Source: Lingula anatina (taxonomy: Eukaryota > Animalia > Brachiopoda). Taken from it: a stretch of 64,000 bases of DNA. The translations under genes and the position numbers were made by a program. The stretch's first letter is position 1; the number at the start of each line of letters is the position of its first letter. Location: NCBI GenBank assembly GCA_051362555.1, contig CM120649.1, positions 12,400,001 to 12,464,000 on the forward strand, written 5' to 3'. Shown one piece after another: positions 1,937 through 41,200 of the stretch. Below the pieces are notes generated by a model. That model was not told where the DNA came from and did no database searches. It saw only the letters and a program-made list of their open reading frames with translations.

Positions 1937-1979
<43 letters not shown>

Positions 1980-7587: not shown

Positions 7588-7635
<48 letters not shown>

Positions 7636-15934: not shown

Positions 15935-16459
15935 GTAAATTTTTTCACCTTTTGATAATTCCGACCAGTTAAAATTGTACTGATGTATACATAGTTATCT
16001 GTAAGATGCAGCAGTTGCTCTCGATCGTCTCTCAACGATAGATTTAAACATGATCAGCTAAGATAACAAAATATGAAGCACAGAAATTTAAAGGGACAAG
16101 TCCCCCTCCCTACTCCATAACCCCTATATCTCCCTCTCATGACTGTGTACGTTTTTTTATCAATAAATACAAATAAATTGAAAAGTGGTGTGGCTACTTG
16201 AGATGGATACAACCTGGTCACTATTCTTTATAAATATGTCGCCACTAATAAAATGGAATATATTAAGTAATATTTTCTGAGTAATCATTCAGGGAGATAA
16301 TGCTATGCAAAACTACCGGAGTATGAACTTGATTACTACATTACATAGCACAGTTGACATTAAACTAGGGAATTATATGTATACTATATAATAATGTGAA
16401 AACGGGCTGATACATATTATTTGAATTTTTTCTAGATAAAACAAAGGAAGAGTGACATC

Positions 16460-19134: not shown

Positions 19135-19211
<77 letters not shown>

Positions 19212-21723
19212 TTGCTTTATGAGGTAGAATCAGTCTCTTTGATTAAGGGATAATGTATGACTCAGGCTCGCCTTTTTCAAGGGTGAAAATTGTGAATGCT
19301 CAGATACTGTATTTTATTTTTAATTCATAAATTCTTAATATATGAACATTCTTGTTGAGTGGTAGCAACAAAAAACAGATAAACTGGTTACCATGTTAAT
19401 TCTGTTCTTAACAGTTAAAAGCTACATCGAAATATGTTTTATTATTTTTTTGGTTTCAGTTGTGGGATGTCAGTCAGCAGAAGTTGATGAGAACCATGGG
19501 TGGACATGCTGCCAGGGTGGGTTCTCTGGCCTGGAACTCTTATATATTGTCAAGGTGAGTTCATGGGTGGACACGCTGCCAGGGTGGGTTCTCTGGCCTG
19601 GAACTCTTATATATTGTCAGGGTGAGTTGAAGACAGTGGGATTTAGGTAGCTTTTATCTGAGTATTTTATATTATTATTATTATTATTGTTATAATTAAT
19701 ATCATTATTTTTTATTGATTTATATTTTGTTGATAATGAATCTGGTGCTTTTAACTACAATAATGTCTGCATAGTGGAGCATCGAGATGGCACCTGCACC
19801 TTGCACTCAAGGGTGTGGGCTCCAACCTGGGTGTGGTTCACCCACCCTGCCAAAAAACCCCAAACAACATATATTATTATAAAAAAGTAAAAGCTTTGTG
19901 TTTTCAGTGGCTGTAGATCTGGCTCCATTCACCACCATGACGTGCGTGTGGCGGACCACCAGGTGGGTACCCTGACCAGCCATACCCAGGAGGTGTGTGG
20001 CCTGCAGTGGGCGCCAGATGGGAGGTACCTGGCCAGTGGTGGGAATGATAACCTGCTCAATGTGTGGGAGGGCATGGCAGAGACACCTGTCCATTCCTTT
20101 ACACATCATATGGCTGCTGTCAAGGTGAGGCCAGCAGAGGATTATTGTAATTACCCTGAAGTTTTGAATTTGAATACCACACACTTGATGTTGATCATAA
20201 CTAAAAACTGCCTAAATGAATGAAATATTAACTGGTTCATTAAACCTGTAAATAGCCAAACTGAAAAATATTTATAGTGTTACCTCTGTGGGCAAGTTGA
20301 GATGAGATCTTGACAGATCTGTTAACAATATTTTTCAAAAATTAAGTAAGGATCAAACACAATGAATAGTTTCCAGTATATCTCCAGACTGGCAAAAATT
20401 TTATTTGAATGTCAGATTTCTTAGGGGCCATTTCAGGCTTAACAAACAAAATAATTATTTATTTTAACTTAGTCGAAATTTTCCCATTTAAGGCAGTGGC
20501 CTGGTGTCCATGGCAACCGTCAGTACTGGCCAGTGGAGGGGGCACGGCTGACCGCCACATCCGTCTCTGGAACGTCCTGACGGGAGCCTGCCTGCACAGT
20601 GTGGACACCAACTCCCAGGTGAGGATCTGATGGCGCATTCACACCCAAGTTGTGACCACCTAACTCGGTGCCCACTGTTTTAGCAGAACTGTTAGATCGC
20701 ATTCACAATGAGTTGAGCCATGGCTTTACAAATCCTGGAACTAAATATGGCGGACGTACATGAAAGAAAAACCACCTAATCTTTTAATAGTCTCTCCACC
20801 TCTCACACGCCTCCCCATGCGATGTCCCTGCAGGGGTACAGTCATTAAATCTCGGCTCCATTGGGACGACATATGGGGAGGCGTGTGAGAGGCAGAGAGA
20901 CTATTAAAAGATTAGGCGGTTTTTCTTTCATGTACATCCGCCATATTTAGTTCCAGGATTTGTAAAGCCATGGCTCAACTCGTTGTGAATGCGATCATAG
21001 ATTACATTGTTTAAACTGTAGGTATATAGACATATATGGTACTCTTTACTAGAGACCAACAGGGTGTTGAGGAACATGAAGATCTTGTGCACAAATCCTC
21101 ACAGAATAGGAATATGAGTGCAGTTTAAGCGAATAGCCAGTGAAATTTCTTTGAATACAAAATAAATTTCTATGTGGCCCTGGTAGAGGGTACATGTAGC
21201 CTGCTGGTATGTGACTTAATCTGTTATACAGCAGTGGTTGGTTCATGTAGTGCAATGAGATGAGAATGGATTTCTTTGGGTATGATTGTAATAACATGGT
21301 CCAGTGACATGTAACTTAATAAGTAAACAGCCAGAAAATATGAACTTCAAAGTAATATTAGATTGTCCAATCCATCATCCCTTATTTTATTTTAATAAAT
21401 GTGTATGACTAATATTTTAACAGTAATTATCTGTGTTCTCATTGTTCAGGTTTGCTCCATACTCTGGTCCAGCAGTTACAAGGAGTTGATCTCTGGGCAC
21501 GGCTTCTCACAGAACCAGCTCATCATATGGAAGTACCCTGCCATGGGGAGAGTTGCTGAACTCACAGGTAAGATACACCCTGGGTGCCTCAGCATTGATA
21601 GTTGGTCTACTCTGCCTGTGTTAGTTGCTCAATCTCCTTGAGTTTCAGGGTCCTGGCAGGGAAGAATTTCATGAGGTTGCTTTCTCAAATATATTTTTTC
21701 TTAGAAAAGCAATGTCAATAGTA

Positions 21724-21762
<39 letters not shown>

Positions 21763-22050
21763 GTTGTAAACAGAAAGTGCTGAGAGTAAGCAATTTCTGC
21801 ATTTTTTTTGTCAGTCTTATTTATTTATTTATTATGTTAATTATAATTCTAACTATTTCCCACAGGTCACACTGCCCGAGTTCTTGGCCTTGCCATGTCA
21901 CCAGATGGCAGCACGGTGGCTAGTGCAGCTGCTGACGAGACCATACGACTGTGGCGCTGTTTTGAAATCGACAAGCAGAGAAAGTCGTCTAGTTCTAAAT
22001 CGTTCAAAGAGCCAGTCACCAAGAGTGCCCTGCAGAGGGGCATCAGATAA
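16460..22050 (+). CDS. CDC20: Cell division cycle protein 20 (fizzy), APC/C co-activator, 10 coding exons
   Basis: Exons approx. 16460-16619 (LMRWQRK), 16753/16756-16942 (TP-rich CDK sites), 17499-17695 (C-box DR|FIPSR, KILSF motif), 18058-18187 ([12 protein letters not shown]), 18928-19124 (YLNLLDWS), 19461-19554, 19908-20124 ([18 protein letters not shown]), 20493-20618 ([12 protein letters not shown]), 21450-21567, 21866-22050 (DETIRLW ... GIR*, IR tail). Confidence 0.96.
19136..19208. repeat. (TA)n microsatellite; others: (TAAA)n 1936-1980, (ATA)n 7588-7633, (CA)n 52119-52189
   Basis: Direct reading. Confidence 0.95.
20695..20996. mobile_element. Hairpin MITE with ~125-bp inverted arms in a CDC20 intron
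   Basis: GATCGCATTCACAATGAGTTGAGCCATGG... mirrored by ...CCATGGCTCAACTCGTTGTGAATGCGATC. Confidence 0.85.
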
Positions 22051-23511
22051 AGAATGGATGCCAATACACCTCAGTAACTATAGATTTATCATTTATGATG
22101 CCATAAACAGTAGAATAATATACTCCTGTGAAAATAATTTATAATAATTTATGCTTAGAAGCCCCATATAGCATTGACAATCCTGACTAAAACAGTTGTG
22201 AACATCCTCATGAAGGTATTTGCTTTCTGCCTGCTTTGTGTCTTTGTTGATTCAGATGTAGGTGTATACAGTACATGCCAGTGCGTCCTCACATTTATAT
22301 GTGGTTACCTTCTAGGGATGCATTAAGGATTTTGAATTTCGTGACTTTGCAAAGAGAAAAAATATATCTTAGAAATGCCATTTATTTATATAGGAGTAAT
22401 TATCATCTTAAACAATATGATCAAATGCAAAATCCAGGTTTGTGTCTAAATGACCTTAAGTCTTAAAATGCTCTGCACAGAACATTTGACCAGTGACTTG
22501 ACTGTAAATCATTAATATAAATTTAATAGAAATGAATGGAAAGACAAACGGCATTCTAATGAGAGAGTATTTTTTTGTCATTTTTATGTTTTAATTGCTA
22601 TCATCATGTAATCATATTTGATATGCATAAGTAAATAAAGTTATTTTTGTTAAAATTTGGGTATTGCGTCATACAAAATGTATATGTAGGTATTTGTATG
22701 GCAGACAGGCCCAGCAATCTGAGACAGCGTGTCTGAAAGCAGTTAGACTTGGGATGACATGTGGAGGGATTCGGGGAGTGATGTACAGCCAAAGTAAAGA
22801 TGGACCTTTATAAATATATTCCATATAATTATGAGATACTGAGAACAAAGTTAGAAAGTGTGTGTCTATCTGCGTGTGTGTGTGAGAGAGAGAGAGACAG
22901 GTATGGCCCCCTATTAGTTGGGGGTGCACTTGCAACTTTCCTTGCATCATCAACAACACTGTCTAGAGTTGTCTGTGTTTGCATGCATGCCCTTCTTCAA
23001 TTTACTTTTTATTTTCAAATTCAGTAAATTGGGTAACAAATCTGAGATAACAAACTGAATCTTTGTCTAAAACTTGTTATTTCTGTACTATATAATAGTA
23101 GATTTTTTCTTCAGACTGTTCTTGTCATCTTGCAGAAGAAAGATAGTTTGGTATCCACAAGATCTGGCTGATTTTTTTTTTTTTTTTTTTTGTATTAGAA
23201 AAGGGGAATATGTTGTGCAACCAAACTGGAGTCACTTTTTGCAAAACTTTACAATCAAAAAGTTTAAAGAAATAAAATTCCTTGTTTATTTATTCTGGGA
23301 TAAAACTGAATTTATTTTTCAATTGGAATGGTCATGCAAACAAGGATTTTCAAATATTAACTGTTATCCATTCTTACTTCAATATTTATTATCATTAACT
23401 GTGACTATATTTTACTTTCTTTGTCAAACCTGAAGGAAATCTTGGTTAAAACCAACTGTATGTCATAGAGTGTTAACATTACTGCATGATTTATTAACAT
23501 AGGGGTTGACA

Positions 23512-25469
23512 TCACTCCTGCAGGGTTTCCTTGTCAAATAAGTACTCTCCAAGCCCTGGTCCTACACGCTTCGAATTGGTGATGTGGTCGCATATCGTCT
23601 TGATGAACGCCACCTCGTGGTGAAGGAATTCTGTTTCAATCCAGTTCTTCATCTGCAAAAGTTAATGCGCGTGATATGAGTGTCGTTGCAATTAATTGCA
23701 ATAAAACAAAGATTTGAAACTAAATAGATATCTGCAAAAACAAAAATAGGCGGACGAACTCCCTACAATTGGGAGGATAGTATCGTCAATTGACTATTTA
23801 TGCACATTTGGTCAAAGAAAAAAAAAGGTAAAATCCCAAACGCGATCACCGTTTTCTACAAATAACCATAAATACATATCCGATTTTCTTTTCAAAGAGA
23901 AATCGCAAAAAGCTGTACTTCGGCATCCTCAAATTTGGTCGCCGTTTTATGTGCGTCTAACCAGCTTTGGTTGAGGATCCTTTCGAGCCCCAGAGCGGCC
24001 TCCATAGCATTCAATCCATTACTGAGTTTAAAATCTGGTGCCTGCAAAATAATGAAAATAATTTTATGACAAAAATTGATAAAATGTGCAATTTAAATTG
24101 CGCTGCAACAGCAACGTTTCAGTGTTTCAAGAATATAAAATGGCTGAGAAATGCTACTTCCCACTAATTTTTAAAACTCGGAGAGTTAACCGCCTGCTTC
24201 CTTTTATTAACAGATTAACAAATACAAATAAACGCTCTGCTGTTTTGGTAGTTCATCTACTCATTTTCGAGTTCTACAAACAATATACGTCCGCGACTCC
24301 TCACAGTTTCCAAGATCGTTTGCGAGAAATCTGAAGTTCAGGACGAAATTTAAATAGCTAGTTGATCTCTATGATTTTCTTAAGTCCATCTCTTACCCTA
24401 GATATGACTATAATAATAAGATAAGATAATATGAACAAACTGACTATAATAATAAGATAAGATAATATGAACAAACTGGTCATGAGAAAGGATGGCAGAT
24501 ATTATTAGGAAAATTACCAAAAGCCAGTGATAATAAAATAACCGTCTATTTATCTAAAGACATATCTGTGAATATCTTGTGAAAAATCAATCTGCAGCCC
24601 TGGTAGAGGGTATGAGAGAGGTGCCTTTTTACTAGAAGACGCGCATTCGTACCTTAATGTCCTTCAGCACTATCCGCCCTCCGCGAGTGTTCTGGTAATG
24701 TGAGAGCTTACCAGCTTGGTTCCTCTTCTCGTCTGACGCTTCTTTGAAAAATTTGAAGAATCCCTTCAGTTCGTCATCAAAATGCCACGCCTAGTAAAAT
24801 GAAAAAAAGCGCACATTTTATAAGAAATATCTTTGCAAAAAAGTTCCCCGAGGTCTTCGTTACTCTACGTTTTAGTCCGTTTATTCCAAAAAGGCGCAAT
24901 GACTACGAACAAACAGACTGTGGTATCTCTGGAGTGGACAGGGAGGGGGGGGGGGGGTTTGAACTTGGTCGTTTCTTTTATTCATTTATTCCCTTTAAAT
25001 AGAATTTGTTTAAGAAATATCGTTCGTTTGGAAACCCGTCTAATAATCAGCGTGTGTCAAATAATTACTTTAAACATTAGCCTCACGAGGGAAGCCCATG
25101 TAGAGAAAACAATCTTATATAACAGCTTTCACAAGGAAGACAAACGCATTTGTGGCGTCATACACCCCATTTCCATAGATTAGATCGACCTACTTTAGAT
25201 CGACCTAACTCCCTGGGGGTTCACGCTAAATAGCTGTCAGCCGGGCGGACACGACAGTTAATTACCCCCTTACAGCTTGTAGTAGGCGGGACGGACATTT
25301 AAGTCGGATTATCTGAAAGTAATCTAGTGAGACTCCCCGCGGGGATAGATCGATCTAAAATCTATGGGAATAGAGCCATATATTAATCTCTTGTTGCATT
25401 GAGCACCCAGCGCTCTGTGGAAGGATCAGTGCAGGTCAAAGTGCCCCACCAAACTGTTTTTCCGCTTGA

Positions 25470-25511
<42 letters not shown>

Positions 25512-27615
25512 TCAAGCGGAAAAACATATATTATATATTATATAATTATTTTAATATCTATGAAATGGATTGGTGCAAGTAAGAATGCCCCACCAAACTG
25601 TTTTTCCGCTTGACTGATATACATATATAATTATTTTGATATCTATGAAATGGATCGGTGCAGGTCACAGTGCCCCACCAAACTGCTTTCCCGCTTTCTG
25701 ATATATATAATTATTTTCATATGTATGAAATGGATCGGTGCAAGTAAGAATGCCCCACCAAACTGTTTTTCCGCTTGACTGATAGATATATATAATTATT
25801 TTGATATCTATGAAGTGGATCAGTGCAGGTCAGAGTGACCCACCCAACTACATTCCCGCTTGTCTGATATATGTTATTATTTTGATATCTATGAAGCTTA
25901 TATAATAGCTTTCACAAGGAAGGCAAAGGTATTTGTGACGCCAAATATTACCTCTTGTCGCAATGAGCGCATAGCACTTTGTGAAAGGGATCAACGCACG
26001 TGAGAGTGACCCATCAAGCTATTTTCCCTCTTTGTTTAGAATTTGTTTAAGAAATGTCGTTCGTTTGGAAAACCCTCTAATAATCAGCGTGTGCCAAATA
26101 ATTACTTTAAACATTAGCCTCACGATGGAAGCCCATGTAGAGAAAACAACCTTATATAACAGCTTTCACAAGGAAGACAAACGCATTTGTGGCGTCATAT
26201 ATTAATCTCTTGTTGCATTGAGCACCCAGCGCTCTGTGAAAGGATCGGTGCAGGTCAAAGTGCCCCACCAAACTGTTTTTCCGCTTGACTGATATATATA
26301 ATTATTTTCATATCTATGAAATGGATCGGTGCAAGTAAGAATGCCCCACCAAACTGTTTTTCCGCTTGACTGATAGATATATATAATTATTTTGATATCT
26401 ATGAAATAGATCAGTGCAGGTCAGAGTGACCCACCCAACTGCTTTCCCGCTTGTCTGATATATGTTATTATTTTGATATCTATGAAGCTTATATAATAGC
26501 TTTCACAAGGAAGGCAAACGTATTTGTGACGCCAAATATTACCTCTTGTCGCAATGAGCGCATAGCACTTTTTGAAACGGATCAACGCACGTGAGAGTGA
26601 CCCATCAAGCTATTTTCCCTCTTGACTACTGTTGCCTTCGATGGATGAAGCGTCAGTATTCTTGCTCTGTATTCTACCTAAGCCGGTGCATGTACAAATC
26701 AGCATTATCACTGCCGCAAAGTGAAAGCTTATGGAGGCAAATTTTATTTTAATTTGAAAATACACAACTTCTGTGCATCCCACAAGACTTTTGTTTGTTT
26801 GATATAAATGTATTTTACTGGTACCAAGACCAGTGGATTTTCCCCGAGTCTGGTAACTAACGGTTTTCACTAAATACCTTTACCCCATGTTATGCTGAGG
26901 ACTTCTCCATCAAGGTCTGAGCTATATGCAATTATACAGATTATAGACTAATCCCTGCTGTAGCAGAAGGTGCAGTAGGGGGTGTACACAAACATAAGCT
27001 GAATAGTGGTGTATATACTGCATATAAAAGCGTATATATTCAGCTGTATATATATATATATAATTTGTAAACCCTGAGATTCTGATTACAGACATGTAAG
27101 CCTCTTGAGCTGATAGCAATTTCGCGTGAACCCCAGGGAGTTAGGTCGATCCAGATGAATCGATCTAAATCAGTGGGAATGCAGTCTAAGGTTTCATGTG
27201 TAAATAGAAGCCGTATATTTTGATAGGCACTGGGCAGTGTAGCCTCGAATGCCATTTGTATGTTCTGGTAATATTGAATACCTCCTACCAGTAGGAGCAA
27301 TAACTTTCTGAGCTCACTTTGGAATATTTTTTAATTTCAGTCAAAAAAAAAAAAAATAAAATTGCGAAGAGCTGTATTAAATCTCAACAGACCAAGTGCA
27401 TAACTCACGGTCCAAACATTTTTAGACAAAGGAAAACACTACAAGCATTTGGGGAAATCTTCATGTGTTAATTAGCGATTTTAGCGACTTTGCAAAATCT
27501 TGCATACTCCACTTACCAAGGACTGGTAGGCGTAACTGGCATGAAGGCAGGCGTTGATCAACTTGTTGACGCAGGCTTCGCTTTCCTCGTGGTAGTTCTG
27601 GCGACACAGCGACAT
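23512..27615 (-). CDS. Ferritin paralog A (166 aa, cytosolic type, ferroxidase centre degenerate)
   Basis: Four phase-0 exons: 27517-27615 [33 protein letters not shown]; 24653-24790 [46 protein letters not shown]; 23919-24041 [41 protein letters not shown]; 23512-23652 [49 protein letters not shown] intact, no signal peptide, AATAAA at 23490-23495 (minus). Confidence 0.92.
25000..26625. repeat. ~75-bp minisatellite plus local segmental duplication in ferritin A intron 1
   Basis: Unit GATCGGTGCAGGTCAAAGTGCCCCACCAAACTGTTTTTCCGCTTGACTGATATAT... at 25425-25900 and 26243-26490. The segment 25000-26030 is repeated at 26038-26625. Confidence 0.9.
25163..25377. mobile_element. MITE with ATA target-site duplication; relatives at ~27110-27187 and ~40762-40975
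   Basis: TIR CCCCATTTCCATAGATT.AGATCGA / TCGATCTAAAATCTATGGGAAT. The empty site is visible in the duplicated segment at 26191-26210. Confidence 0.75.
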
Positions 27616-27734
27616 AGTGATTATAGCACGGAATAGAACCAATTAAGTTTCTACTGCTAGTAAATTAGCAAATCAAGAAATCGGTATTCAGCTGGATAGT
27701 GTACAGGAAACAATTAGTATGTGATGGAGCTGGT

Positions 27735-27762
27735 GTCCGTCTGCTCACTGGCGCTGCAAGAC
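27735..27762 (-). promoter_or_regulatory. Degenerate iron-responsive element (IRE) in ferritin A 5'UTR
   Basis: GTCTTGC AGCGC CAGTGA GCAGA CGGAC: CAGUGN loop, UGC/C bulge and lower stem are present, but only 2 of 5 upper-stem pairs form. TATA-like AT block about 30 nt upstream. Confidence 0.65.
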
Positions 27763-28782
27763 GCACAACTACGGTCCCCTCGTTGAGCAGATAAATATAA
27801 AGGTGCTAGGAGTTCCCGTAGTTCACTCGGACGTCCAGCCGAGCACGTGTTTTGCTGGCCTATTTACCAGACCGTGACCCCGGTCACTGCTGTACTGACC
27901 TCAATGATCCGAATGGCCAGTTTTTTCTTTTTTTGTTTTTTTTTATTACTATGGTGACGCGGTCATGGTTGAACGCGAGAGAAAAATTTGAGATTAGAAA
28001 CACATCTGACATATTAAATAACCTGGTAGAATATTTTATTTTATATAATTTCATTCGTTAATTGTTTTACATATATTCATTTACCTATTTCTAAATTTAT
28101 ATCGATTGTTTTGTCTGTTTTTTAGAAACTTTTTGCAAGTAAAGGAAGAATGGAAACAATGAAAAAAAAAGAAAGAAAGAAAGAAAACCTAACAAGCCAC
28201 GCAAGATTAGATCATTCAATTATACGCAGTACATGCTGATTTTCTATAGATACAGAAAATTATCACTACCAGAAAAAAACTCGTCCAGGTTATGCAACAA
28301 TTGACGTATGACCTAATTATCGTAAAGTACTAGACATACGAGAGTGCACGGTAATACACTAGCTGCCTTTTGTTAGAATTTTGATAATATATACTGGTAA
28401 TAATGTGGTATATGAGAATTTAATTTTTTTGTTTTTCCATGCAACGACGTACGGCAGTGTTATACAAATCATCTTCACCCTTAAATTCAAATCTAAATCA
28501 CGGAAGAGAAGCCAACGTATTTTAGGAACGAAAGTCTCTCCAAACTAAAAAAATTTAGAAAACAAATGTCTACCCATTTAAAGCTGACAGAGAAGTGAGG
28601 CCTATTAACGATTCTAAAACGGTGGAAATTATTCGGCCTAATTATTGTCATTAGCCTCTTTTGATATATCTTTCCCTTCAAAAACGATTATCACACCTGA
28701 TCATGAGATAGTTTCGGTAATTTAGTGCAAGCCAGTCCCAGGTCCTTGGAAGCGTTATGTAACCTGCGGTGGCCCACAAGTG

Positions 28783-29212
28783 CACTCCAAATTCCAAACG
28801 ACTCTCCCAATTCTAAACCTCACTCCGAATATTTAAACTTCACTCTCAATTCTTAAACCTCACTCCGAATATTTAAACTTCACTCTCAATTCTTAAACCT
28901 CACTCCGAATATTTAAACTTCACTCTCAATTCTTAAACCTCACTCCGAATTCGTAAACCCCACTCCGAAATCGCATACCTCACTCCGAATTCGCAAACCT
29001 CACTCCGAATTCGTAAACCTCACTCCGAATTGAAAAAGCTCACTCCGAATTCGCAAACCTCACTCCGAATTCGCAAACCTCACTCCGAATTCGTAAACCT
29101 CACTCCGAATTCGTAAACCTCACTCCGAATTGAAAAAGCTCACTCCGAATTCGCAAACCTCACTTCGAATTCGTAAACCTCACTCCGAATTCAAAAAGCT
29201 CACTCCCAATTC
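28783..29212. repeat. 20-bp minisatellite (CACTCCGAATTCGTAAACCT), about 21 units
   Basis: Direct head-to-tail repeats with no unique spacers; the left part forms a 40-bp dimer pattern. Confidence 0.95.
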
Positions 29213-29950
29213 CACTGATAATAACTCATCAGACTAACGTTAATCTTAGCTCCGATGCACATTTTAAGTACTTTCATAAGTTGTTTAATTGTGAAACATT
29301 GTTTAATGATAACAACTTAATTAGTTGCAAACACTTTGCTTTGTGTAATAAATTATTTGATGTATTTCTGCCTAATCGTTCTGTAGCAAAGAAAGTTTTA
29401 AATTCTAAAAAGATTAAAATGAAATTCAATCTCGATATCATCTAAAATACATAGTTTACAGGTTCTTAATTTTTGTGTCTGTTTACCTTCCAGTTTCTGC
29501 AGCTAGATTATGTGATGAAAGTCTTAAATTGGCGATTAATTCCTTACATTTCTGTGAAATTGGCTTATCTGAATAGAATTGCACTGCAAAATTATCAACA
29601 AGATGTTGGTACAGTAGGCCTTTACTCCTTGTGGATATTTCTCCAGTCAATGTTTGTCTAAAATTATCTTTCAATCTTTACTCTCTCAAGGACGGTATAA
29701 AATTATCTAACATATTTTCGAGAAAAATTTAAAGACAAGCCAAGTGTTTCCAGTTCATTCTGTATTCAAATTACCCAATCAAAAGTTTTTGTTAGTGTAT
29801 GGACTGAGTGCTGACTCTTCAAAATTCGAGAAATGGATTTTACGTGACTAGAATCCTTTAATCCTTTATAAGTTGAGGCAGCGAGACCCCAGCTTCAAGC
29901 ATGCACTCAGATGTAGGCTAAAGATAGAGAACCCTGGGAGATCGTCCAAG

Positions 29951-30140
29951 GGCGCATTCAGAACACGTTGATCCGTGGACTAACGGATCCGCGGGTCAAA
30001 TATGGCAGACCCACTTGAAACCTTGTCGCATAATCCTCTAATAGATACCGAATAGATTCTCCGCGGGGATAACGTGGTAAGTTTTCAAGTGGGTCGGACA
30101 TATTTGATCCGAGGATATGTTAGTCCGCGGGTCTACAAGT
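29951..30140. mobile_element. Hairpin MITE family (GGCGCATTCAGA termini); other copies ~18261-18432 and ~63803-63965; related termini at 39798-40020
   Basis: Shared CAAATATGGCAG.CCCACTTGAA core, inverted at the other end. Confidence 0.7.
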
Positions 30141-31309
30141 CATCCTAAAAATCGGTAACCAACCACGGTTACGTAAGGAAATGCCGTCCCGTTTGTTTGA
30201 GCTGACTGAATTATAAAAAATTGCAAAATAAATAAATAAATAAACAAATAAATAAATATCAAGCCTCTTCAAACTAAGCCTTAAGGAATTGCAACCTAAA
30301 TCGAAAACATATATATGAAAATTAAAATAATAACTATTTAAAACAACCAATAACCTCAATCATACTACAGTGTACTTCTTTTAACAAAAAAAAAAAAAAA
30401 AAAAAAAAAGGCTTTGTCTATATAAGCCAATGGCGAAAGCATCAAACAATAGAATTTTTCAGGGTGAATGAATTCAACCTTTATTTGGCCCGGGTTTGCT
30501 AAAGAGAGCTGAACGTTATCTAACTGTGATTCGTAAACAATAGCATTAAGAACTGTGAAATCAATTCAAAGTCACGAACGCGCAATTAATGGTCTGTAAA
30601 GTGACCGATCGAAGAGGTGTTTATGTTGATCTCAAACCAAGCGAATTTTGCATAATTTATTTTATTTATTTATTTATTTATTTATTTATTATTATTATTA
30701 TTAAGGGCCTCCCTTTTTTCAAGTGATGAATAAGGGACGTTAGATGCATTTTCACCATGTTCGTAAATGGAAAAAAATGTCTTTTTTTAACTTTCAGTGA
30801 ATTCCTTTACACACTGAAATGTTAATCTTTTTTAAAACTGATAACAGTTATGCGTTCAAACGAAGTATTTCAATTAAATATCGACTTAGCCACTGAAAAG
30901 AAATTCAAAACGCCAATGAGGTTTTAAAAGCTTTAATGAACGGAACACTTAATCAATGGAGAGATTTAATAGGGTACAATGATCATTATACCGTGACGCG
31001 GATCAGTGTTTTTAAGTATATTTCGTCAGTTCGTATTGGCCTAATCGGGATCTTCCACAAGACGCTCTCAAACCTACAGATTGCCTGAAAACTACTTGGA
31101 CCGGCAATTAAAATCAAATCCTTGGGAGAAAATGTGACGTCAAGATTGTCAATTTCGTTGCAAGATCTGGCTAAATCACTCACTTGATTTTTAGCGTAAG
31201 CTTTACTTTTCAGTTCGCATTTATGATCAACTCATTCACATTAAGATCGCAGTAAGAAATGCGTTCAGCCGTCGTCTGCTTCTGTGAATGGTCGGTTCGG
31301 GGTCTTCAT

Positions 31310-34300
31310 TTAATCTTGCAGGGTCTCCTTGTCAAACATGTACTCTCCAAGACCTGGTCCATTGCGCTTCAGATTGGTGATGTGATCGCAGATTTTCTTG
31401 ATGAATTCCACTTCATGGTGAAGGAATTCGGTCTCGATCCAGTTGGTCATCTGAAAAGGATAACATATAAATGATCAATTCAAAGCATAAGAGGCGCAAT
31501 ATAGGCGACAAAAAATCCATAATAACGACTTCTGTTTGCTTCTCGATAACCTTTTCCAAATGTTAAACTTAATATTTTTTCATTTTAAAAAGCGCGAGCA
31601 AAGAAGTGTCATAAATTAGCCATTAAGACACGTATCTGTGAATATCTAGTAAAAATCAATCTGTGACCCCGGCAGAGGGTAACAATGAATACCGTGGAGC
31701 AGAATTGTGAGGAAACTTTACCTCTGGATCCACGTGGCTCTGTGCGATCTTGTGCAGGTCCAGCCAGGCCTGGTTAACGTTCTTCTCCAAGGCCAGGACA
31801 GCCTTCATGGCGTTGGCGCCATCACCCCACTCGTCAAGGTCGGGTTTCTGTGAAATGAGAAAAATGATGATAATAAAGGGAATGAGTAAATAAACGGAAA
31901 TATATATTATCCACTAGTTATTTCCCATAAGTGTTGTTCTTCTTTCTCTCATAGAACCTGGAAATGTCAAAGATTTTAAGAGCAACTGTAGTTTATCATT
32001 CAAAATTTACAGAAAATGTTTTAAGAAACAAAAGAAAACAGAAGGAAGAAAAGAAGATACCAAATGCTTTCAAACTGTGTTTTCAAGATTTTAAGAACGA
32101 AGAACCAAAAATCGCATAACATCATGAAAAATTAAAAATCTGCGTGCAGAGTACCTTAATGTCTTGCAGCACTACCCGTCCCCCGCGCTGATTCTGGAAC
32201 TTCATGAGCTTGCAGGCGTGCTCCCTTTTCTCCCCAGACGCCTCCTTGAAGAACTCGTGGAATCCTTTCAGAGCCACGTCGTCGCGGTCGAAGTGCCATG
32301 CCTGACGACGGAAAGAAAATGAATATGAGTTCATGTTAAAAGGGACGAAGGCGAATAAACTTTTCAAAAGTTGCTTAGACCATCTGCATTGTGTTTTGGT
32401 GAAGACAAATTAATGCTTACTTAAATTACAAAATTCAAGATAATATAATTCAGAAATAACGAAAAAAGACAAAACTGGATTTTTTGTTTAAAAAAATCTA
32501 GGTAAGTCTCAGAATACAATACCGTATTGCTAACACCAACAAATATTCAGTTTCGTATTACTGTATATCCACCTTCCACTAATTAAAATAAAATAGAATC
32601 AATAGTAAAAAGGAAATTGGAAAAAAAAAACTTTTCAAGACACTCTTTGACCGTTCCCACTTTTCACTTTTTTCCCAGGCCTCGGCTTGTCACATGACGT
32701 TTATATAAAGACCTTCCTGTCTTTGACACAGCACTTGTTTTGGACACCCCGCGTTGTTGATCAGGTGTCACAGGAAAGAGAACATGATTCATTCAGATAA
32801 CGCAATCTTTGACCGTATCCTTTTTACTAAGTACACAGTTATGTAAACGGTAATGAGTGGCGATTTACTGATGCCATCGAAAATTTGCCCTCTGCCCTCT
32901 GTACCTGATTGCCTGCCATCAACTACACATATCTGATTTATTTTTCTTTTAAATTTCCAGGTTTCTCGTTCTTGTTGCACGTTTCTTTCTTTCGTGGGCG
33001 GGTGATTATGGTTAAAGGGGGTCTTTCCGATATGAGGGAAAATAAAACATATCCCAAACTTTTTCTTATATATGAAGGTCACGATCTAAACCAAAATTCG
33101 CCTTTGAGGTAGACGGCAATCAAAATAATTAATTATTTCACATTCGAGTCTGTATTGGAGAACGTCCTCTCCCCAAAAAAGAGAAGACGACTACCGCAAG
33201 GTTTTAGCCAATCAGAGTGCGTTGCCTAAAATAGCACTCGTACACTAGGAGAAACAAATATGGCGCGGTGGAGTTCGAAGTAAGTCGTTTACAGATGCAC
33301 GTTAGTTAAAACTCTCTCCCTTCATTGTTCGTGAACAGGTTTGTGCACTTAAACATTTAAAGAATTCATTTAACTTCTCGTCGGTTAAAATAGTCCAAAA
33401 ATCAACGAATGGCTTGAAAATATTTACGACGGAGTGTAGCCTTTTATGTCAACAGTGCTTGATGCCGTAATTCTCAATGCCGATTCACCGAATGAGTGAC
33501 TTGTATCAGGAAATATACCGGTGACATGATTAGAGACAGTGATATTTTTCGGGTCAACTGAACCAGCCCTTTTCGGTTGGATATTTATGAACGACTGTTA
33601 CTTTTTTTGTTGTTTGCTATGCTTTCTGAGCCGCAATTTTGACATCGCGATTTGCACGCACAGCGTAGCACGGACTACAAATGCGTTCCAGACGATTTTG
33701 ATACTTACTGGCAGTAGTGGTGAGCATCGTGCAGATGTCAAAATCGTCAATAGGAGTGCCTGAATTTTGTGCTACGCACACACGTATCTTATCTTGCTTT
33801 TCTAGTCGATCTGTTTTTATACTTTTCAGATCGAGAGTAGGCCTATTGTTGATGAGGCAAGCAGTCAGAGCAGTCCAGAACTAGAGGGTAAAGAGCTCCC
33901 TGAGGTAAAGAGTTTTCTGTTATTTTTAAATAATACAGGCCTTTTAGTTAATCTGGCATATTCCTTAGTTTTGATAGTAATGTGTAGGACCCACCTTACC
34001 CTCACCTATATTCACATGTAATAATCCACACATACAAAAAACTTATAGTTTAGGGATAACAATTGATACGCTTGAGTGCAGGACAATGATTAATTGAAGT
34101 GAAACCCATTTTGAACAGTTCACAATATTATTACTAGCATGCAATTAAATCAGTGCCAATTATTATTATTATTAGTTTTATTATTATTTTACAGCATACT
34201 ATCTTGTGATGTCAGCCTCATTAGAAAAAAAGCCCTGTATAAAGGTTTAGTAGAGTTGGCAGTGATACATAGCACTTCTAGGTCCAGTAGTACAAGGCTT

Positions 34301-35988
34301 GGAAGAGGTGTGAGATCAGGAGGATTGACTCAAGAACATGAAAGGAGAATTCAGTTACTCACAGAAGAGGTATAAAACTCATTAAATCTTTATTGAAAAG
34401 ATAAATTCTAAGTTTCTCACAATACACAAACACCATTCATATTCCTTCTTATTTTCAAAGTAAATTTATTCGATAAAATTTGGTGGTGTGAAATCCAGTC
34501 CTTATGGTTGTTTTAGTGTTCATACATTTTCAAATATTTTATTTTTGAAGTAAGCTATTGTACATATCAAAACAGAAATGACAGATATAAAAGTGAATAT
34601 ATTTTTTTCATTATCAGAGCATACATGATGGTGTTGCCAAGAAAATGATGGTGTTGCCAAGGAAAGTGCTGAATACATTGTGACAAGTGTGATGGAAATC
34701 CTGGCCTTGCACTGGATATAAAGATGCTTTTGCTAGAGAATTTACCAAGCAATGACTCAGCATCAGTGGAGATGGGACTGGCCCATCTCCCACTCACTGT
34801 AATGTCCCCTACATTTTGACTGCCGTTGAATTTGCTGGATTACTTCACTTTGAAGAAAATCACAGAATAACTATTACCATGAGTATCAGTTTACTGACCA
34901 AACATTCATAAGACCTGTAATATGCAAGTCACTGAGTAGAAAGATTCTTTTCATTCTACTGTAATTTGTGCAACCATTCAGTGAACATAAAAAATAAAGG
35001 CATAGAAAAACAAGGTGCTTTCATTTATCCCTTTCTCATATCAAAAGTAAAATGCAACTCTGTACACAATCTGTTCATAAAATCAATCATTTTAAAAGTT
35101 AATGTCATACAAGGAAATAATGTATGTCTGGATGGATTTATAAAAGAAAAGTTCATGTGAGGTAATCATCATTTTGATAAAAAAAATTCTTATATACATA
35201 TAAGGACCACGGTGCCTTGAGTCTCTTGGTTCTATCTGCACCATGGCTGCTTAGAAATGTGTACTTGTAATTCCCATGTCAAATTCCTGGTTTGTAAGAC
35301 TGGAATGTACCTTTATTTGAGCTAATTGTTTATGTAACAGCTTGAGGTCTTACTGTCATCCATGATTTTGAGTGCTTGCTTTGCTGCTTAGTATACCTAA
35401 AAACAAAACATTGACTATTGGAAAGACTTCAATGCATTTTTTTGTGAAATTAATAGCACCCACTATCTGTAATGTCTACGCCAGACATAAGAGCACTGAA
35501 TAGAGCATGGTTATCAAAATTATTTGTTTCAAAATCCAATTTATTATATAATGTTCCCCACATTAAGTACTGATATCCTGTGCTTGTCACAATTCTAGGA
35601 CTAGCTGCCATGGCAGTGTTAAACTTTATAATAAAATGGCATTGTTCCAAGTACTAACATGCATTAGATTGATATTGATGGCAAGGTGTACTGAACATGG
35701 TAAAATAAACAGCTATTGTGTGTTTGGATTCTGGGTGTCAGGTACTTACTTTGGCTCTGGCTCTATGTTGGCCTTGAACCTGATGTAGGGGTAGATGTTA
35801 CCACATGCATATTACCTGGATAAAAAATATATATACCAGTGTATTATCCTTATTCTCCAGAGATTCCCCATGAAGTCAACTTTAAAAACATAAACAGAGA
35901 ATAAACATTTACTACCATCAGATGCTGCAATTAATGTGCTCGCTTTAAATCTTTTAATTTAAATTAAATTCGAATAAGGTAAATAGTG

Positions 35989-36021
<33 letters not shown>

Positions 36022-37970
36022 GGACTTGAGTATATAACGACGTTAAGTAAGCCGACAAAAACCAGTCTTTAATAGAAGACTATTTAGCTCAATCCTTGTT
36101 TGTACTGACTGCTCTAAAGAATAATAAACTTTTCTGCGTACAGCAGGGATAACAGGGGCGGATCCAGAGATATAGGTCTATTCTGACAGTCTTCCGAGTA
36201 ATGTTGATCCATCCTCCATTTTTGACCGCCTTTCGACAGAAATATTACATATACCCGCCAATGAAAACTTGAAAATCTAACCGTCTTCCGGAAGAACCAG
36301 AAGACGCCCTAAATCCGCCTCCTGAATATGTTCTCAATGAAAGAGTCGGACGTGATAAGAGATCGAAATAACCTACCCGTATCCGGCAGAATTTTGTCAG
36401 TTTCTCGCTTGTCAGTTTTATTTCCTACTTCTGCTTTGTCTACCTCACCGGCCTGCCAATGAAAATAACATCCTCTGCTTCTGCATTTCCCGTTTTATTT
36501 CCTTTTTCATTGTCCCGTAGAGTTATTCTTCTCTCTTTCAACTCACGTGTACTCGGACTACCCTCCATCTTGGTTTGCAGTGACATCCGGGTCTTCTCCA
36601 GAGCGTAGTAAACAGTAGTATTCAGTCATATGCAAATTGAGGCAAGTCCCAGAATTCCATGCGTAGGGGAGTAATGGCGAGAAGTTTAGACGAAAAAAAA
36701 ATGCTGCGCTTTTTTTTCTTTAAGTGATCTTAAAAACCTATACCTCGACCTTTATTTTCTCAACGGTTTCGTGTGAGACATGCTTTGGGGTTCAGGATCA
36801 AATAGGCAAAGTTTCAGAGAAAGGCCTATTTAAGCGTCTACAGCGGAAAGACATCCTTTAATGGTTTATGACGCTTTTTAATATTTTTTATGTCCAATGT
36901 TTGGATTTAAAAATTGCCTCCGCTGCCTTTAATCCACTCTATGCTTTGACTTGCCTTTTTCTTCTTATCTCCTCTTTAAATAAGATACGCTGTCATATTT
37001 CCGTCGCTTTTCAGATAACGCACAATACGACCATGGGGTTACATGATATTTCGCATGAGTCATTAATTCTGGGTCTTGAAACTTAGTCAAGGCCAGAAAA
37101 AATCAACTACGCACAAAACAGTGAAACTGAGAGTCGAAAAGCTCGCTGCTATATAGGGGGCCGGGGCTGGAGGTTATAATACGTATACATGGCGTCGAAG
37201 TGTTTTTATATTCTCTTCGATGTCATCATCCTGTAATAACATTTTCTTTGGAATTTTTGGAGATTCCACTACTATTTTAAGATGTGTCAAAATATTTTGT
37301 CTGGATTGGTATTCAAACTCAGTGATAACTGCGCGCGCCAAGTTTTCGCCTTCTTACTTTGCCATTCAACAGTTTGCCATTTTTCTACTGCACATCTTAT
37401 TTTCCTTTACCTTTATTATTTAACAACAAAGGCTATCCAACCCTAATAATCCTGCAATAGCTGACGGGACCAGGATTTGCTAAGGAACACAAAAATAATT
37501 ATTGGAGAGCGAAGCAGGTCAAATGATATTAGAGGCGAGAATAATATTACGGCAATATGTAGGACATAGGAACAGAAAATTGAGCAAACATTGAGCAAAC
37601 AAAATGGAGGGAATCGAAGAGGTATATATAACATTATTGAGGTACAATCAGTTGCAACTTACACCTCAGCGTAGTCATTTAAAGGAAACCATTTGAGTCT
37701 GTTTCTTACCTAAGCTTGATGATAAAAGAAAATACGGTTGGTAGAAAACCTGCAGAAATTCATTTTAAAGATGTGCACGACCAAAAAACAAAAGGCCAGA
37801 CCAACATTTAATACCACTTTTAACTGACAATCTAATTAGCAGACGCTGTTGTTAATCGTACTCACCAAGGAATGGTAGACGTAACTGGCATAGTAATTCA
37901 GATTAATCTGCTTGTTGACGCCTGCCTCGCTTTCTGAATGATAGTTCTGGCGGGGAAGAGACAATGCCAT
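31310..37970 (-). CDS. Ferritin paralog B (172 aa, cytosolic type, L-chain-like substitutions)
   Basis: Exons: 37866-37970 [35 protein letters not shown]; 32155-32301 [49 protein letters not shown]; 31722-31847 [42 protein letters not shown]; 31310-31450 [46 protein letters not shown]. Canonical animal ferritin intron positions. Confidence 0.94.
33016..36857. mobile_element. Decayed Kolobok-type DNA transposon in ferritin B intron 1
   Basis: TTAA|AGGGGGTCTTTCCG at 33012-33029 and CGGAAAGACATCCT|TTAA at 36844-36861 form a 14-bp imperfect TIR with TTAA duplication. Inside are two inward-facing promoter/exon remnants (ATGGCG...GAA|GTAAG near 33260-33280 plus; ATGGAGGGT near 36568 minus) and degraded coding fragments. 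Family assignment rests on AGG termini plus TTAA TSD. Confidence 0.7.
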
Positions 37971-38074
37971 GGTGCCGTCGATGGAGAACGCTCTTCACGA
38001 TGCTAAGACAAAATATTGCTTTAAAAAATCACTGATTGATTTTCAAGATTTTTGGAGGGAAAACAGTCGCTCAA

Positions 38075-38100
38075 TCCGTACGTACACTGACGTCCCAAGA
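38075..38100 (-). promoter_or_regulatory. Variant IRE in ferritin B 5'UTR
   Basis: TCTTGG GACGT CAGTGT ACGTA CGGA: loop, 4-bp upper stem and lower stem are present, but the bulged C is replaced by G and the fifth pair is G.A. Confidence 0.7.
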
Positions 38101-38154
38101 GTTGAGTCGACTAAAGTTGCTAGCTAGTATGTCGCACGCTAGCCCCGACGCTGC

Positions 38155-38211
38155 TTTTATAGTCACCGTGACCTCATCGCCACGTGACATTATGTCACTA
38201 AATGACTGTGC
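38155..38211 (-). promoter_or_regulatory. TATA box and upstream motifs of ferritin B
   Basis: TATAAAA (minus) at 38155-38161, about 55 nt upstream of the IRE. GTGACATTATGTCAC palindrome near 38184-38198 and an ARE-like TGACnnnGC at 38203-38211. Confidence 0.5.
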
Positions 38212-41200
38212 ATTTTTAACGTTCCTTGGGTCAGAAACAAGCCAAATAAAAAAGTAACGTGCCCAAAATATCCATAAATTATTTACGTCCCTAATTACCA
38301 TCAAAACAACAACAAAATAAAGCCAACAGCTGGTTGAGTAATTACGCGCAACATATCGTTCTTTATCACGAGTTGCACTCTATTGCTCTTTGCCCATCTG
38401 GGTTTAGTTGAGTCAAACAAAACTGTTTACATACCCTTGGTAGAATAATTGGGTTAATTCCGTTGCAGATCTCAAGGGCACCGTTAACAGCAAAAGAACG
38501 AATTTATTTTCATAAAAAAAAGGAATTTTGTTTTTGATTCGTTTTAAATGTCTTAGATAATACGTCTTGTTGTAAGGTTTAAAAATAAACTTTATCAGCG
38601 GTTGAAATGCATCGAAACTCAAATACGCGCGCAGGAACAGTCCTCCACTATGACCATAGATTGCATTTGGTCTGACTGAAATTAAAAAAAAAAAATCCAA
38701 CCAGGCCGTGAATTTAGATATTATACTGAACCGGGAATGCAAAAAAATAAATAATAATAATAATAATATAAAAAGGGAAAGTACACGGGGCTTTTTCGAT
38801 ATAATTTTTTTTTAATTCTAGGTCTTCCAGTTTATTTCTGAAAAAGTTATATTGTTCGTTTCATCTCAAGCCTGATGTTTTGAGTGAATAATTGTACGAA
38901 CGATGTTAAGCAACTTAAAAGCAAACGAAATAAATAAAAAAAATATGAAAATAATTTACAAGAAAAGTCATTTTCACAAAGTAATGTTAGCTTTATTGAC
39001 ACAATTCATTTGTTTTTTCTTTAATTCAATAACTTGTAATTAAAAAAAGGTTAATTTTTTTTTCATTATCAAATAAATCTTTTGCACTGGTATTTATTTT
39101 AAACAGTGAGTACAACACATGGACGTCTCTTGGATCTGGACATCCTATAATCATTTCATTACCATTTCTTTCGAATATTTTAAAATAAAAATAGTTTCAT
39201 TACTTGTGGTCTTTTTTAACCAAGAACAACATGCAATCAATCTGGAATACAACAGTAATATGAATAGTAACTACTGTTTAAATAATGCAAAACTGAGAAA
39301 TAACTAATCCTGCTCTTACAAAATATAAAGCTTTTTAGAGAATATCTTTTAATATAACTTATCGAAGTAAGAGAAATACAAATCCTTTCAAAAAGTTTTT
39401 CTTTCCATGAGTTCTTCTAAAAAATCGGCCTTCTTAGAAAATTTTCGTAAATCTGCCCTTAATTTGATTAGCAATGCAAAATATATACAGTCATTTCTTA
39501 ATCGTACAATTGTGGTCAGGAAAATAAAACCTATCCATTTATTTGCACCCCCCCCCCTTAACTCAAAAGTAGCCCTACACAATCTAACTAATGACAATAA
39601 ACAAAATATAAACTATAAATATAAACTATAAAGAAGAGAATGATGTCCAAATCATGTTAAGTCGGTATCTTTGCAGTTTGTTAGACACGTAGCCATTGTA
39701 AAATTCACCGGCAGTTTTTACAGAATAAGATCTTTTCGGTTTAAAATGACTCCTCTCCTTATCTTTCACCTCTGCAATATTCCATAAGATATCAAAGGGG
39801 TACATTCAGATTCACACATCTTACTAGCTGGGTGGGTCCAACTGTGCAGGAGATTTTCGCTTTAAGTGCAATCAGTGGAATCAACTTAAACTGCACTTGA
39901 TACTCAATTACCTTCTAGCTGCTCAAGGAGGCATGTCAGGCAATAAAGCTTATACCACTGATTGAACTTTAGCAAGTTGGACTGATCCAGCTAGTATGAT
40001 GTGTGAATCTGAATGCGGTCAAACACAGCCTTTCTTCAGTTCACTTAGGTATAACCCTTATAAAATACGGATTTCATCTGCACGCAACATGGTATAATAA
40101 CATAATATCAGCTAGAGGTGACATTTTGCACACTTCCACGCAAAACAACTGGCAAGATCTCAGATTTTTCATTATACAGTCCACTTTTACCAGTATTATT
40201 ATATAGGCTCTCTGTTTGTCTTGGAGCCAATATGATTCGTTATTGCAGATAATCGTCTCCCATGAAGTGGAAAAAATACCTTTTTAGATGATGGTTTCCA
40301 TTCCTATTTGTGGAAGGACTTGCTATGTTCATACCAAAAACAAAACTTGTGGTCCCTTAGACTAGGATGGCTCAAAATGATCTCAGGTTCCCATTTTTAT
40401 ATCTTACAATTTTCAATCAAACACAGAAGCCAATGATACAGACAACTGCTCAAACAACCTTTGCAGAACTTCGTCTCAAAGTTCAAAGTGGACATACTGC
40501 CACCAGTGTTTGATACTGTATCTCACCACTAGGTAAATAATAATTCAAACATTTTCACACCTTGGCTAAAAATACAGTGTCTTATCTTGGGTATTTTCGT
40601 CCGCTTGATCATGAGTCTTCCTCGAGTAAAATCATGAGCATATGGATACTTCAGGTAAAAATGAATATGCAGCCAATCTAACGACTAGCACCATCAATCA
40701 GATTATGAGCATATGGATACTTGAGGAAAAAAATGAACATGCAGATGCAGTCAATGTGAAGACCCCATTCCCGCAGATTTTAGATTGATCTATCCCTGTG
40801 GGGAGTCTCACTAGATTACTGTCAGCTTAGCCGGCTTAAATGTCTGTCCTGTCTACTAAAAGCTACAAGGGTGTTATTAACTACCGTGCGCGCTCAGCTG
40901 ACTGCAATTTAGCGTGAACCCTCAGGAAGTTAGATCGATCTTGATGGATCGATCTAAATCTAAGGGAATGCAGTCTTGGACTAGCTTCATTACTAAATTT
41001 GTACAATGAGTAAAAAAACTTTTCCACATGTTACTACAACACCAGTAGAAGAAAAAGAAAAAAAAATTAATTTGGGAAAAGTAAATAAAAGCAGTAATGC
41101 CTTCCATCAATACTCAGATTCAGAATTCAGATTTTCCCTACATCTCTTCAAAGTTTTCAACTAGGTTATTCCAAGAGGATCTGAATGGCATCTAATTTTT

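What the first reader, a model, noticed from the sequence alone, without database searches (positions are those of the whole stretch)
23512..37970. Two tandem invertebrate ferritins that appear to have converged on vertebrate L-chain chemistry
Seen in sequence (human H-chain numbering): E27 is N (B) or C (A); E62 is K in both; H65 is kept in B and is Q in A; E107 is kept; Y137 is F; Q141 is E; A144 is F; E147 is K (B) or T (A); position 57 is E in both. B also has E53/E61/E64, and A has D60/E61. Established: H-type ferroxidase ligands are E27, E62, H65, E107 and Q141. Mammalian L-chain lacks E27 and has K62 (salt bridge to E107), F137, E141, L144 and K147, plus cavity-facing nucleation glutamates at 57/60/61/64. 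Mollusc cytosolic (soma) ferritins are normally H-type. Inference: this is an independently evolved, ferroxidase-null, nucleation-type subunit family that would co-assemble with an H-type subunit encoded elsewhere. It would be most relevant in an iron-biomineralising mollusc such as a chiton or limpet, but the species cannot be read from the sequence.
Basis: partly seen in the sequence, partly recalled or inferred. Interest (0 to 1): 0.88.

Follow-up and report, generated by a model that had tools for sequence, protein, structure and literature searches.

The report
Catalytically crippled brachiopod ferritin pair
The lamp shell Lingula has two neighbouring, expressed genes for iron-cage proteins that lost the iron-oxidising site independently of the vertebrate light chain; one likely serves as an inert partner subunit, and a single peptide of the other was reported from the shell.

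Summary
Both genes are real, intact four-exon ferritins, and every residue call is correct. The animal is the brachiopod Lingula anatina, not a mollusc. RefSeq fuses the pair into one 259-aa model. Both lack E27, E62 and Q141. Trees reject a common origin with vertebrate L chains (AU p 0.035; 0.0009 without trait columns), so the K62/E141 match is convergent. dN/dS between the paralogues is about 0.12. An intact H-type gene exists elsewhere; B is co-expressed with it (about 1:3 and 1:10 in 2 of 3 RNA runs), while A is spliced in the third. 'Nucleation-type' is not supported: of the five L-chain nucleation glutamates B keeps 3, A keeps 2 and Lingula's own H-type keeps 4. Both also carry D131N and E140H, and decayed iron-responsive elements. 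A published shell proteome lists one A-specific peptide as its only ferritin. Ferroxidase-degenerate invertebrate ferritins are already described, and PDB 9X0L (TsFerB) has the same L-like residues. Verdict: a new variant of a known kind, likely a non-catalytic partner subunit (B) and a more derived, possibly shell-recruited copy (A).

The parts
38155..38161 (-). TATA box of gene B (predicted)
   Evidence: TATAAAA match upstream of the IRE relic
38075..38100 (-). Decayed iron-responsive element in the 5' UTR of B: CAGUGN loop kept, bulge C replaced by G, 4 of 5 upper-stem pairs
   Evidence: 21 of 26 bases equal to the EMSA-tested ark-clam ferritin IRE printed in PMC8947174 (counted by hand); no Rfam IRE hit at E<=10
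37866..37970 (-). Gene B exon 1 (ATG; N27)
   Evidence: identical in protein to RefSeq XP_023933523.1 residues 1-35
32155..32301 (-). Gene B exon 2 (E53, E57, G60, E61, K62, E64, H65)
   Evidence: Pfam Ferritin E 5e-11
31722..31847 (-). Gene B exon 3 (E107)
   Evidence: its 3' end is read joined to exon-4 sequence in 1225 reads of run X16
31310..31450 (-). Gene B exon 4 (N131, E134, F137, H140, E141, F144, K147; stop). Left out of the RefSeq model
   Evidence: B-specific letters in RNA reads of X16 and X19 cross-laid on A exon 4
27792..27799 (-). TATA-like box of gene A (predicted)
27736..27761 (-). Decayed iron-responsive element in the 5' UTR of A: bulge C and loop kept, 2 of 5 upper-stem pairs
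   Evidence: 20 of 26 bases equal to the ark-clam IRE (counted by hand); no Rfam hit
27517..27615 (-). Gene A exon 1 (ATG; C27). Left out of the RefSeq model
   Evidence: own TATA-like box and IRE relic; its splicing to exon 2 was not observed
24653..24790 (-). Gene A exon 2 (3-residue AB-loop deletion; E57, D60, E61, K62, N64, Q65)
   Evidence: 39 junction reads to exon 3 in X13; deletion shared with P0002
23919..24041 (-). Gene A exon 3 (divergent BC loop, E107); 23946-23978 encodes the peptide reported from the shell matrix
   Evidence: 25 junction reads to exon 4 in X13
23512..23652 (-). Gene A exon 4 (N131, F137, H140, E141, F144, T147; stop)

Best explanation
Two intact, expressed Lingula ferritin genes lack three of the five ferroxidase ligands, arose independently of vertebrate L chains, and likely encode non-catalytic cage subunits. 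Inferred history: the IRE-bearing H-type soma ferritin gene was copied whole; the copy lost E27, gained K62 (a likely plug pairing with the kept E107) and E141, lost D131 and E140 on the iron-entry path, let its IRE decay, and was duplicated again in tandem. Inferred function: B, abundant alongside the H-type mRNA, likely co-assembles with H subunits as a stabilising, diluting subunit that lowers oxidation and three-fold-channel entry per cage. It would work like an L chain in being inert, but probably not as a better nucleator. A has diverged further, is expressed in a different sample, and was likely recruited to a shell or mantle role. Shown: gene structure, residues, splicing of B3-B4, A2-A3 and A3-A4, co-expression of B with H, purifying selection between A and B, separate origin. 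Inferred: loss of activity, co-assembly, escape from IRP control, shell function.
For: Residues. Own H-type with all five ligands: P0037. RNA: B-specific letter at 23614 in 1934 of 1936 reads (X16), 583 of 587 (X19), 1 of 29 (X13); H-type letter at 23591 in 5376, 6153 and 953 reads; A junctions 39 and 25 reads in X13, 2 in X19, 0 in X16. dN 0.23, dS 2.0. Trees: A+B+P0002 100/98; vertebrate L nested in a vertebrate clade 100/99; AU p 0.035 and 0.0009 with 14 trait columns dropped, where B's closest row is Lingula H at 78%. P0002 folds as a ferritin (pLDDT 91.6; TM 0.96-0.97). D131N abolishes rapid Fe2+ uptake in human H ferritin (PMC13088775 abstract). IRE relics. Shell peptide: PMC13425148 Data S19/S20. 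Sponge HdF2 (E27Q, E62K) was found by MS in native complexes with the major form (PMC8395497 passage).
Against: No activity, assembly or localisation data. Bulk RNA co-expression does not show the same cells; tissues are coded and unknown. Ratios come from cross-laid reads at 80% likeness and are rough. The shell evidence is one peptide and one MS/MS spectrum (PEP 0.0011), and most proteins in that list rest on one peptide; H-type and B peptides could have been missed. dS near 2 is close to saturation. B still has E53, E57, E61, E64, E136 and E143, which could form a different nucleation patch. The sister group of the clade is unresolved: Lingula H is not its sister in the best trees, though that grouping is not rejected (p 0.27). 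The backbone of the trees is largely open.
Confidence: 0.5

Rival explanations
1. One reading: true L-chain analogues whose cavity carboxylates speed ferrihydrite nucleation in H/L-type heteropolymers.
For: K62 plus E141 together occur in only 5 of 101 fully covered representatives, 4 of them vertebrate-L-like. B has E57, E61 and E64 and is co-expressed with H.
Against: L nucleation uses E60, E61, E64 assisted by E57 and E140 (PMC12746419): B has 3 of 5, A 2 of 5, P0002 3 of 5, Lingula H 4 of 5. D131 and E140 are kept in mammalian L rows and lost here. K62 and E141 are each one base change from E and Q codons, and K62 recurs in 14 of 101 representatives.
Confidence: 0.25
2. Both proteins form their own cages with a function outside iron storage, for example a structural, chaperone-like or Ca/phosphate-handling role in the shell system (compare artemin; recalled).
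For: A's peptide is the only ferritin listed among 97 shell proteins; the H-type model is not listed. IREs are decayed and D131/E140 are lost. TsFerB is deposited as a 24-chain entry of its own.
Against: B tracks H in 2 of 3 RNA runs. One peptide only. The 2015 Lingula paper has no ferritin in its main text; its supplement has one 'ferritin' row, an expression-table entry.
Confidence: 0.18
3. One gene giving a 259-aa 1.5-unit ferritin (B exons 1-3 joined to A exons 2-4), as RefSeq models it.
For: XP_023933523.1. In X13, A exons 2-4 are read while B exon 4 is nearly absent, and the exon upstream of A2 was not seen.
Against: B3 is read joined to B4 in 1225 reads. A1 has its own TATA-like box, IRE relic, ATG and donor. 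P0002 is a single-unit A-type protein. The same 1.5-unit pattern appears in models of the Lingula H-type, oyster, sponge, coral, mite and shark ferritins, which points to a recurrent annotation artefact.
Confidence: 0.04
4. Decaying duplicates with no function.
For: Catalytic ligands and IREs are lost; A has a long branch (0.37-0.41), two deletions and low expression.
Against: Open frames, canonical introns, dN/dS about 0.12, high B expression, an A peptide in MS data, and a relative from another source with the same substitutions (P0002).
Confidence: 0.03

Closest known systems
Vertebrate ferritin light chain (FTL)
   Same: No E27, K62, E107 kept, E141, F137, hydrophobic 144, K147 (B), E57/E61; expressed alongside an H chain (B).
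   Different: Separate origin (AU tests). E60 (B) or E64 (A) lost; D131N and E140H; H65 kept in B (G in mammalian L rows); IRE decayed, whereas mammalian L mRNA keeps one (recalled).
TsFerB (PDB 9X0L; partner entry TsFerA 9X0K is H-type)
   Same: From the printed alignments: E27 lost, E53, E57, K62, W132, E136, F137, E141, E143, K147; best PDB match to B exon 4.
   Different: Keeps D131 and E140; has N60, K61, W65, L144. Organism and paper not found (not among the rows shown). It was not in my trees, so orthology with B is open.
'Atypical' signal-peptide-less invertebrate ferritins (PMC8395497), e.g. sponge HdF2
   Same: E27 and E62 (to K) lost, no working IRE, paralogue beside a conventional ferritin; 18% of non-insect invertebrate ferritins in that survey.
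   Different: HdF2 is a minor form and lacks E61/H65; the Lingula pair adds E141, and B is abundant. The main text does not mention Lingula; its supplement could not be read.
Lophotrochozoan soma (H/M-type) ferritin, incl. Lingula XP_023933434.1
   Same: 73% (B) and 57% (A) identity; same fold and four-exon layout; no signal peptide.
   Different: It keeps E27, E62, H65, E107, Q141, D131, E140 and E60/E61/E64.
Insect light-chain homologue (Fer2LCH) and Artemia artemin (both recalled)
   Same: Independent loss of the ferroxidase centre in an invertebrate ferritin.
   Different: Secreted H/L cage in insects, chaperone in Artemia; neither was compared here.

Membership tests
Animal ferritin (PF00210) | Ferritin domain and five-helix fold | tested here: met
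   Pfam hits on B exons 2-3 and A exon 2; model of relative P0002 pLDDT 91.6, Z 26, rmsd about 1 A to ferritins
Animal ferritin (PF00210) | Assembly into a 24-mer cage | not testable with these tools
   needs protein; A has AB- and BC-loop deletions
H/M-type soma ferritin | Ferroxidase ligands E27, E62, H65, E107, Q141 | tested here: not met
   B keeps H65 and E107; A keeps E107 only
H/M-type soma ferritin | Intact 5' IRE | tested here: not met
   relics only; no Rfam hit
Vertebrate L chain | Member of the vertebrate L clade | tested here: not met
   p-AU 0.035; p-AU 0.0009
Vertebrate L chain | Ferroxidase site replaced: no E27, K62, E107 kept, E141 | tested here: met
   the K62-E107 salt bridge itself is recalled and was not measured
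Vertebrate L chain | Nucleation set E57, E60, E61, E64, E140 | tested here: not met
   B 3 of 5, A 2 of 5
Vertebrate L chain | Three-fold channel D131 and E134 kept | tested here: not met
   N131, E134 in A, B and P0002; D131 in the L rows that cover it
Vertebrate L chain | Co-assembly with an H chain | not testable with these tools
   only mRNA co-expression of B with H in 2 of 3 RNA runs
Atypical invertebrate ferritin (PMC8395497) | No signal peptide and no IRE | tested here: met
   N-termini align with soma ferritin from residue 1-3; IRE decayed
Atypical invertebrate ferritin (PMC8395497) | Under 49% identity to human H, or more than 5 replacements in three functional domains | tested here: inconclusive
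   P0002 is 52-53% to human H; replacements at 27, 62, 131, 141 and 60 or 64 are present, but the authors' residue list is in a figure and supplement I could not see

The most novel reading that the evidence does not exclude
A brachiopod re-invented the H/L division of labour and then took it further: paralogue A, freed from ferroxidase activity and iron-responsive control, became a shell-matrix cage protein of the calcium-phosphate shell, and B belongs with TsFerB to an unrecognised, old lophotrochozoan light-chain family.
Probability: 0.2. Interest if true: 0.8.

Novelty: new variant of a known kind. Interest (0 to 1): 0.52.

Why it matters
It gives a natural, independent replicate of L-chain evolution. 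The K62/E141 plug recurs but the nucleation glutamates do not, which makes it testable whether L chains are selected for nucleation or simply for being stable and inert. It also changes how a published result reads: the 'soma ferritin' counted in the Lingula shell toolkit is not the iron-oxidising ferritin but a ferroxidase-degenerate paralogue hidden in a fused gene model.

Tried and rejected
No whole genome is held, so other Lingula ferritins were seen only through protein searches. The single-sequence fold of P0002 failed (pLDDT 44.7); the alignment-based fold worked. A and B were not folded as full-length proteins. No RNA holder was listed by index; raw-read runs were laid instead. Reads were laid only on 21500-25400, so A1-A2, B1-B2 and any B3-A2 joint remain unobserved; 509 loose ends were not shown. 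Rfam gave no IRE. The chance estimate is post hoc, since the pattern came from the two sites. TsFerB's organism was not found. Searches listed no paper on ferroxidase-null Lingula ferritins; the library lacks most subscription papers. No earlier scan findings. No complex prediction was run, because ferritin dimers would pass by likeness to solved cages. Seven ORFs in B intron 1 gave no Pfam hit. Rejected: mollusc/radula setting; F137, E57 and K147 as L-diagnostic; pseudogene; fused gene. The tree dropped 20 of the 54 rows (near-duplicates and long branches) and added 10 vertebrate rows; both trees used LG+G4 without the mixture model.

Full report
Observation. Six-frame translation and exon mapping show two ferritin genes on the minus strand, B upstream of A, each with four exons and three phase-0 GT-AG introns; B encodes 172 aa and A 166 aa without stops. 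The finding's coordinates are B's ATG and A's stop. tblastn shows no other ferritin exon in the window. All residue calls hold. Neighbours are a STAG cohesin gene, CDC20 and glycine-rich RRM genes.

Organism and annotation. The best hit to B exon 4 is XP_023933523.1 of Lingula anatina. Its first 126 residues equal B exons 1-3 and the rest is 98% identical to A exons 2-4. The window is therefore Lingula anatina or a very close form, a brachiopod with a phosphate shell, and RefSeq fuses the two genes. The same 1.5-unit pattern occurs in models of the Lingula H-type (XP_023933434.1) and of oyster, sponge, coral, mite and shark ferritins. The H-type keeps all five ferroxidase ligands.

Which residues matter. 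Among 143 other ferritins of at least 160 aa retrieved, E141 occurs in 0, K62 in 1 (R in 2) and loss of E27 in 3. F137 occurs in 54, E57 in 27 and K147 in 11, and E61 and E64 are near-universal (142, 138). Among 148 new 50%-cluster representatives, 101 cover all five ligand sites: 49 keep all five, 14 have K62, 6 have E141 and 5 have both. Four of those five are vertebrate-L-like by sequence or tree and one is an unnamed, divergent protein with a signal-like N-terminus. So K62 plus E141 is the real L-like signal. The L nucleation set is E60, E61, E64 with E57 and E140 assisting (PMC12746419, passage). B holds 3 of 5, A 2 of 5 and Lingula H 4 of 5. Both paralogues also have N131 and H140. D131N abolished rapid Fe2+ uptake in human H ferritin (PMC13088775, abstract and introduction), and D131 was present in 142 of 143 comparison rows.

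Origin. A, B and an unnamed relative P0002 (76% to B, 68% to A, sharing A's three-residue deletion and N27/K62/N131/E141/F144) form a clade (100/98). Vertebrate L rows nest in a vertebrate clade (100/99). Forcing the two together is rejected (p-AU 0.035; 0.0009 with 14 trait columns removed). With those columns removed, B's closest row is Lingula H (78%). A sister relation to Lingula H is neither recovered nor rejected (p 0.27); the recovered sister is a pair of unnamed K27/R62 ferritins, which may reflect shared losses. The species behind P0002 is unknown. dN/dS between A and B is 0.12 with dS near 2. An alignment-based model of P0002 is a normal ferritin subunit.

Expression. Three raw RNA runs and one contig set were laid on 21500-25400 at 80% likeness. 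A is spliced at the predicted introns in X13 (39 and 25 junction reads, depth 15-41, like CDC20 there), has 2 junction reads in X19 and none in X16. B reads cross-map on A exon 4: nine of the ten positions I checked carry the B letter and the tenth is a synonymous variant of B. Their loose end is the end of B exon 3 (1225 reads in X16). At 23614 the B letter is in 1934 of 1936 reads (X16), 583 of 587 (X19) and 1 of 29 (X13). H-type reads, identified by loose ends that translate to XP_023933434.1 sequence, number 5376, 6153 and 953 at 23591. B:H is thus roughly 1:3, 1:10 and under 1:900; capture differs between the two, so these are rough. Tissues are not known, and the exon upstream of A2 lay outside the stretch.

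Regulation. Rfam finds no IRE, but both 5' regions hold a related 26-base element just below a TATA-like box. Against the ark-clam ferritin IRE that was shown to bind IRP1 (PMC8947174, passages), B matches 21 of 26 and A 20 of 26 bases by hand count. B lost the bulged C and one stem pair; A keeps only 2 of 5 upper-stem pairs. This marks A1 as a true first exon and suggests escape from iron-dependent translation control (inference).

Protein evidence. The 2026 Lingula shell proteome (PMC13425148; passages, extraction methods and supplement rows) lists XP_023933523.1 as the only ferritin among 97 shell proteins, from bleached shells. The single unique peptide (PEP 0.0011, one spectrum) lies in A exon 3 and is absent from B and H. 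All 16 'ferritin' places of that supplement were shown and none is the Lingula H-type model. The passages seen treat it as an ordinary ferritin domain. The 2015 genome paper has no 'ferritin' in its main text and one row in its supplement. In Terebratalia a ferritin is broadly expressed, including the mantle margin (PMC9484238, passages).

Prior knowledge. PMC8395497 (passages and section 2.3; supplement unreadable, and it may list Lingula) defines 'atypical' invertebrate ferritins lacking ligands and IREs, including sponge HdF2 with E27Q and E62K, found in native complexes with the major form. PDB 9X0L 'TsFerB' has lost E27 and has K62, F137, E141, L144 and K147, next to an H-type TsFerA. Chiton ferritin work concerns IRE isoforms of an H-type gene (PMC7850002, passages). 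Invertebrate ferritins usually carry both ferroxidase and nucleation residues (PMC8961696, passage). My ten literature searches listed no description of this pair.

Verdict. It works like an L chain in being, by prediction, catalytically inert beside an H chain. It is not a member of the L family, and the nucleation claim fails on residues. Most likely B is an inert, stabilising partner subunit and A a derived copy with a possible shell role (0.5). Rivals: true nucleation subunit 0.25, independent non-storage cages 0.18, fused gene 0.04, decay 0.03. New variant of a known kind; interest 0.52.

Noticed in passing
RefSeq XP_023933523.1 and XP_023933434.1; P0151-P0158: Ferritin loci in Lingula, oyster, sponge, coral, mite and sharks carry 260-290-aa models made of exons 1-3 plus exons 2-4, a recurrent mis-annotation of tandem or duplicated ferritin genes.
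   Followed up: partly
window 43250-63400, minus strand: A tandem cluster of about four glycine-rich RRM genes (CIRBP/RBM3-like by recall); RRM_1 hits on three exons.
   Followed up: partly
window 283-13800 (minus) and 16436-22050 (plus): STAG/SA cohesin subunit and CDC20, head to head; CDC20 is read only in run X13, the same run that expresses gene A.
   Followed up: partly
window 23000-39000: CpG observed/expected is 0.65-1.33 across the ferritin pair against 0.25-0.5 in the flanks, with a sharp dip to 0.11-0.15 at 34001-36000 inside B intron 1; seven ORFs there have no Pfam hit.
   Followed up: partly
window 25170-25370 and 24530-24600: A short dispersed element with inverted ends inside A intron 1 and at the start of A intron 2 collects thousands of RNA reads on both strands with many variants; likely a MITE-like repeat present in many transcripts.
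   Followed up: no
window 26233-26486 and 28804-29212: Minisatellites: an 81-85-base unit in A intron 1 and a 20-base unit in 20 copies between B and A.
   Followed up: no
P0154, P0156, P0219: Shark proteins named 'heavy subunit-like' carry K62 and E141 and group with tetrapod L chains (99/94).
   Followed up: partly
P0003, P0039, P0096, P0137, P0251, P0255, P0302: Other invertebrate-type ferritins with separate ligand losses (K or R at 62, K or G at 27, Y at 141), including a jellyfish protein; P0003 nests with Phascolosoma-like H-types.
   Followed up: partly
P0068, P0075, P0079, P0132: Animal-type soma ferritins filed under Escherichia coli, Piridium and Gracilaria; likely host or epibiont contamination.
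   Followed up: no
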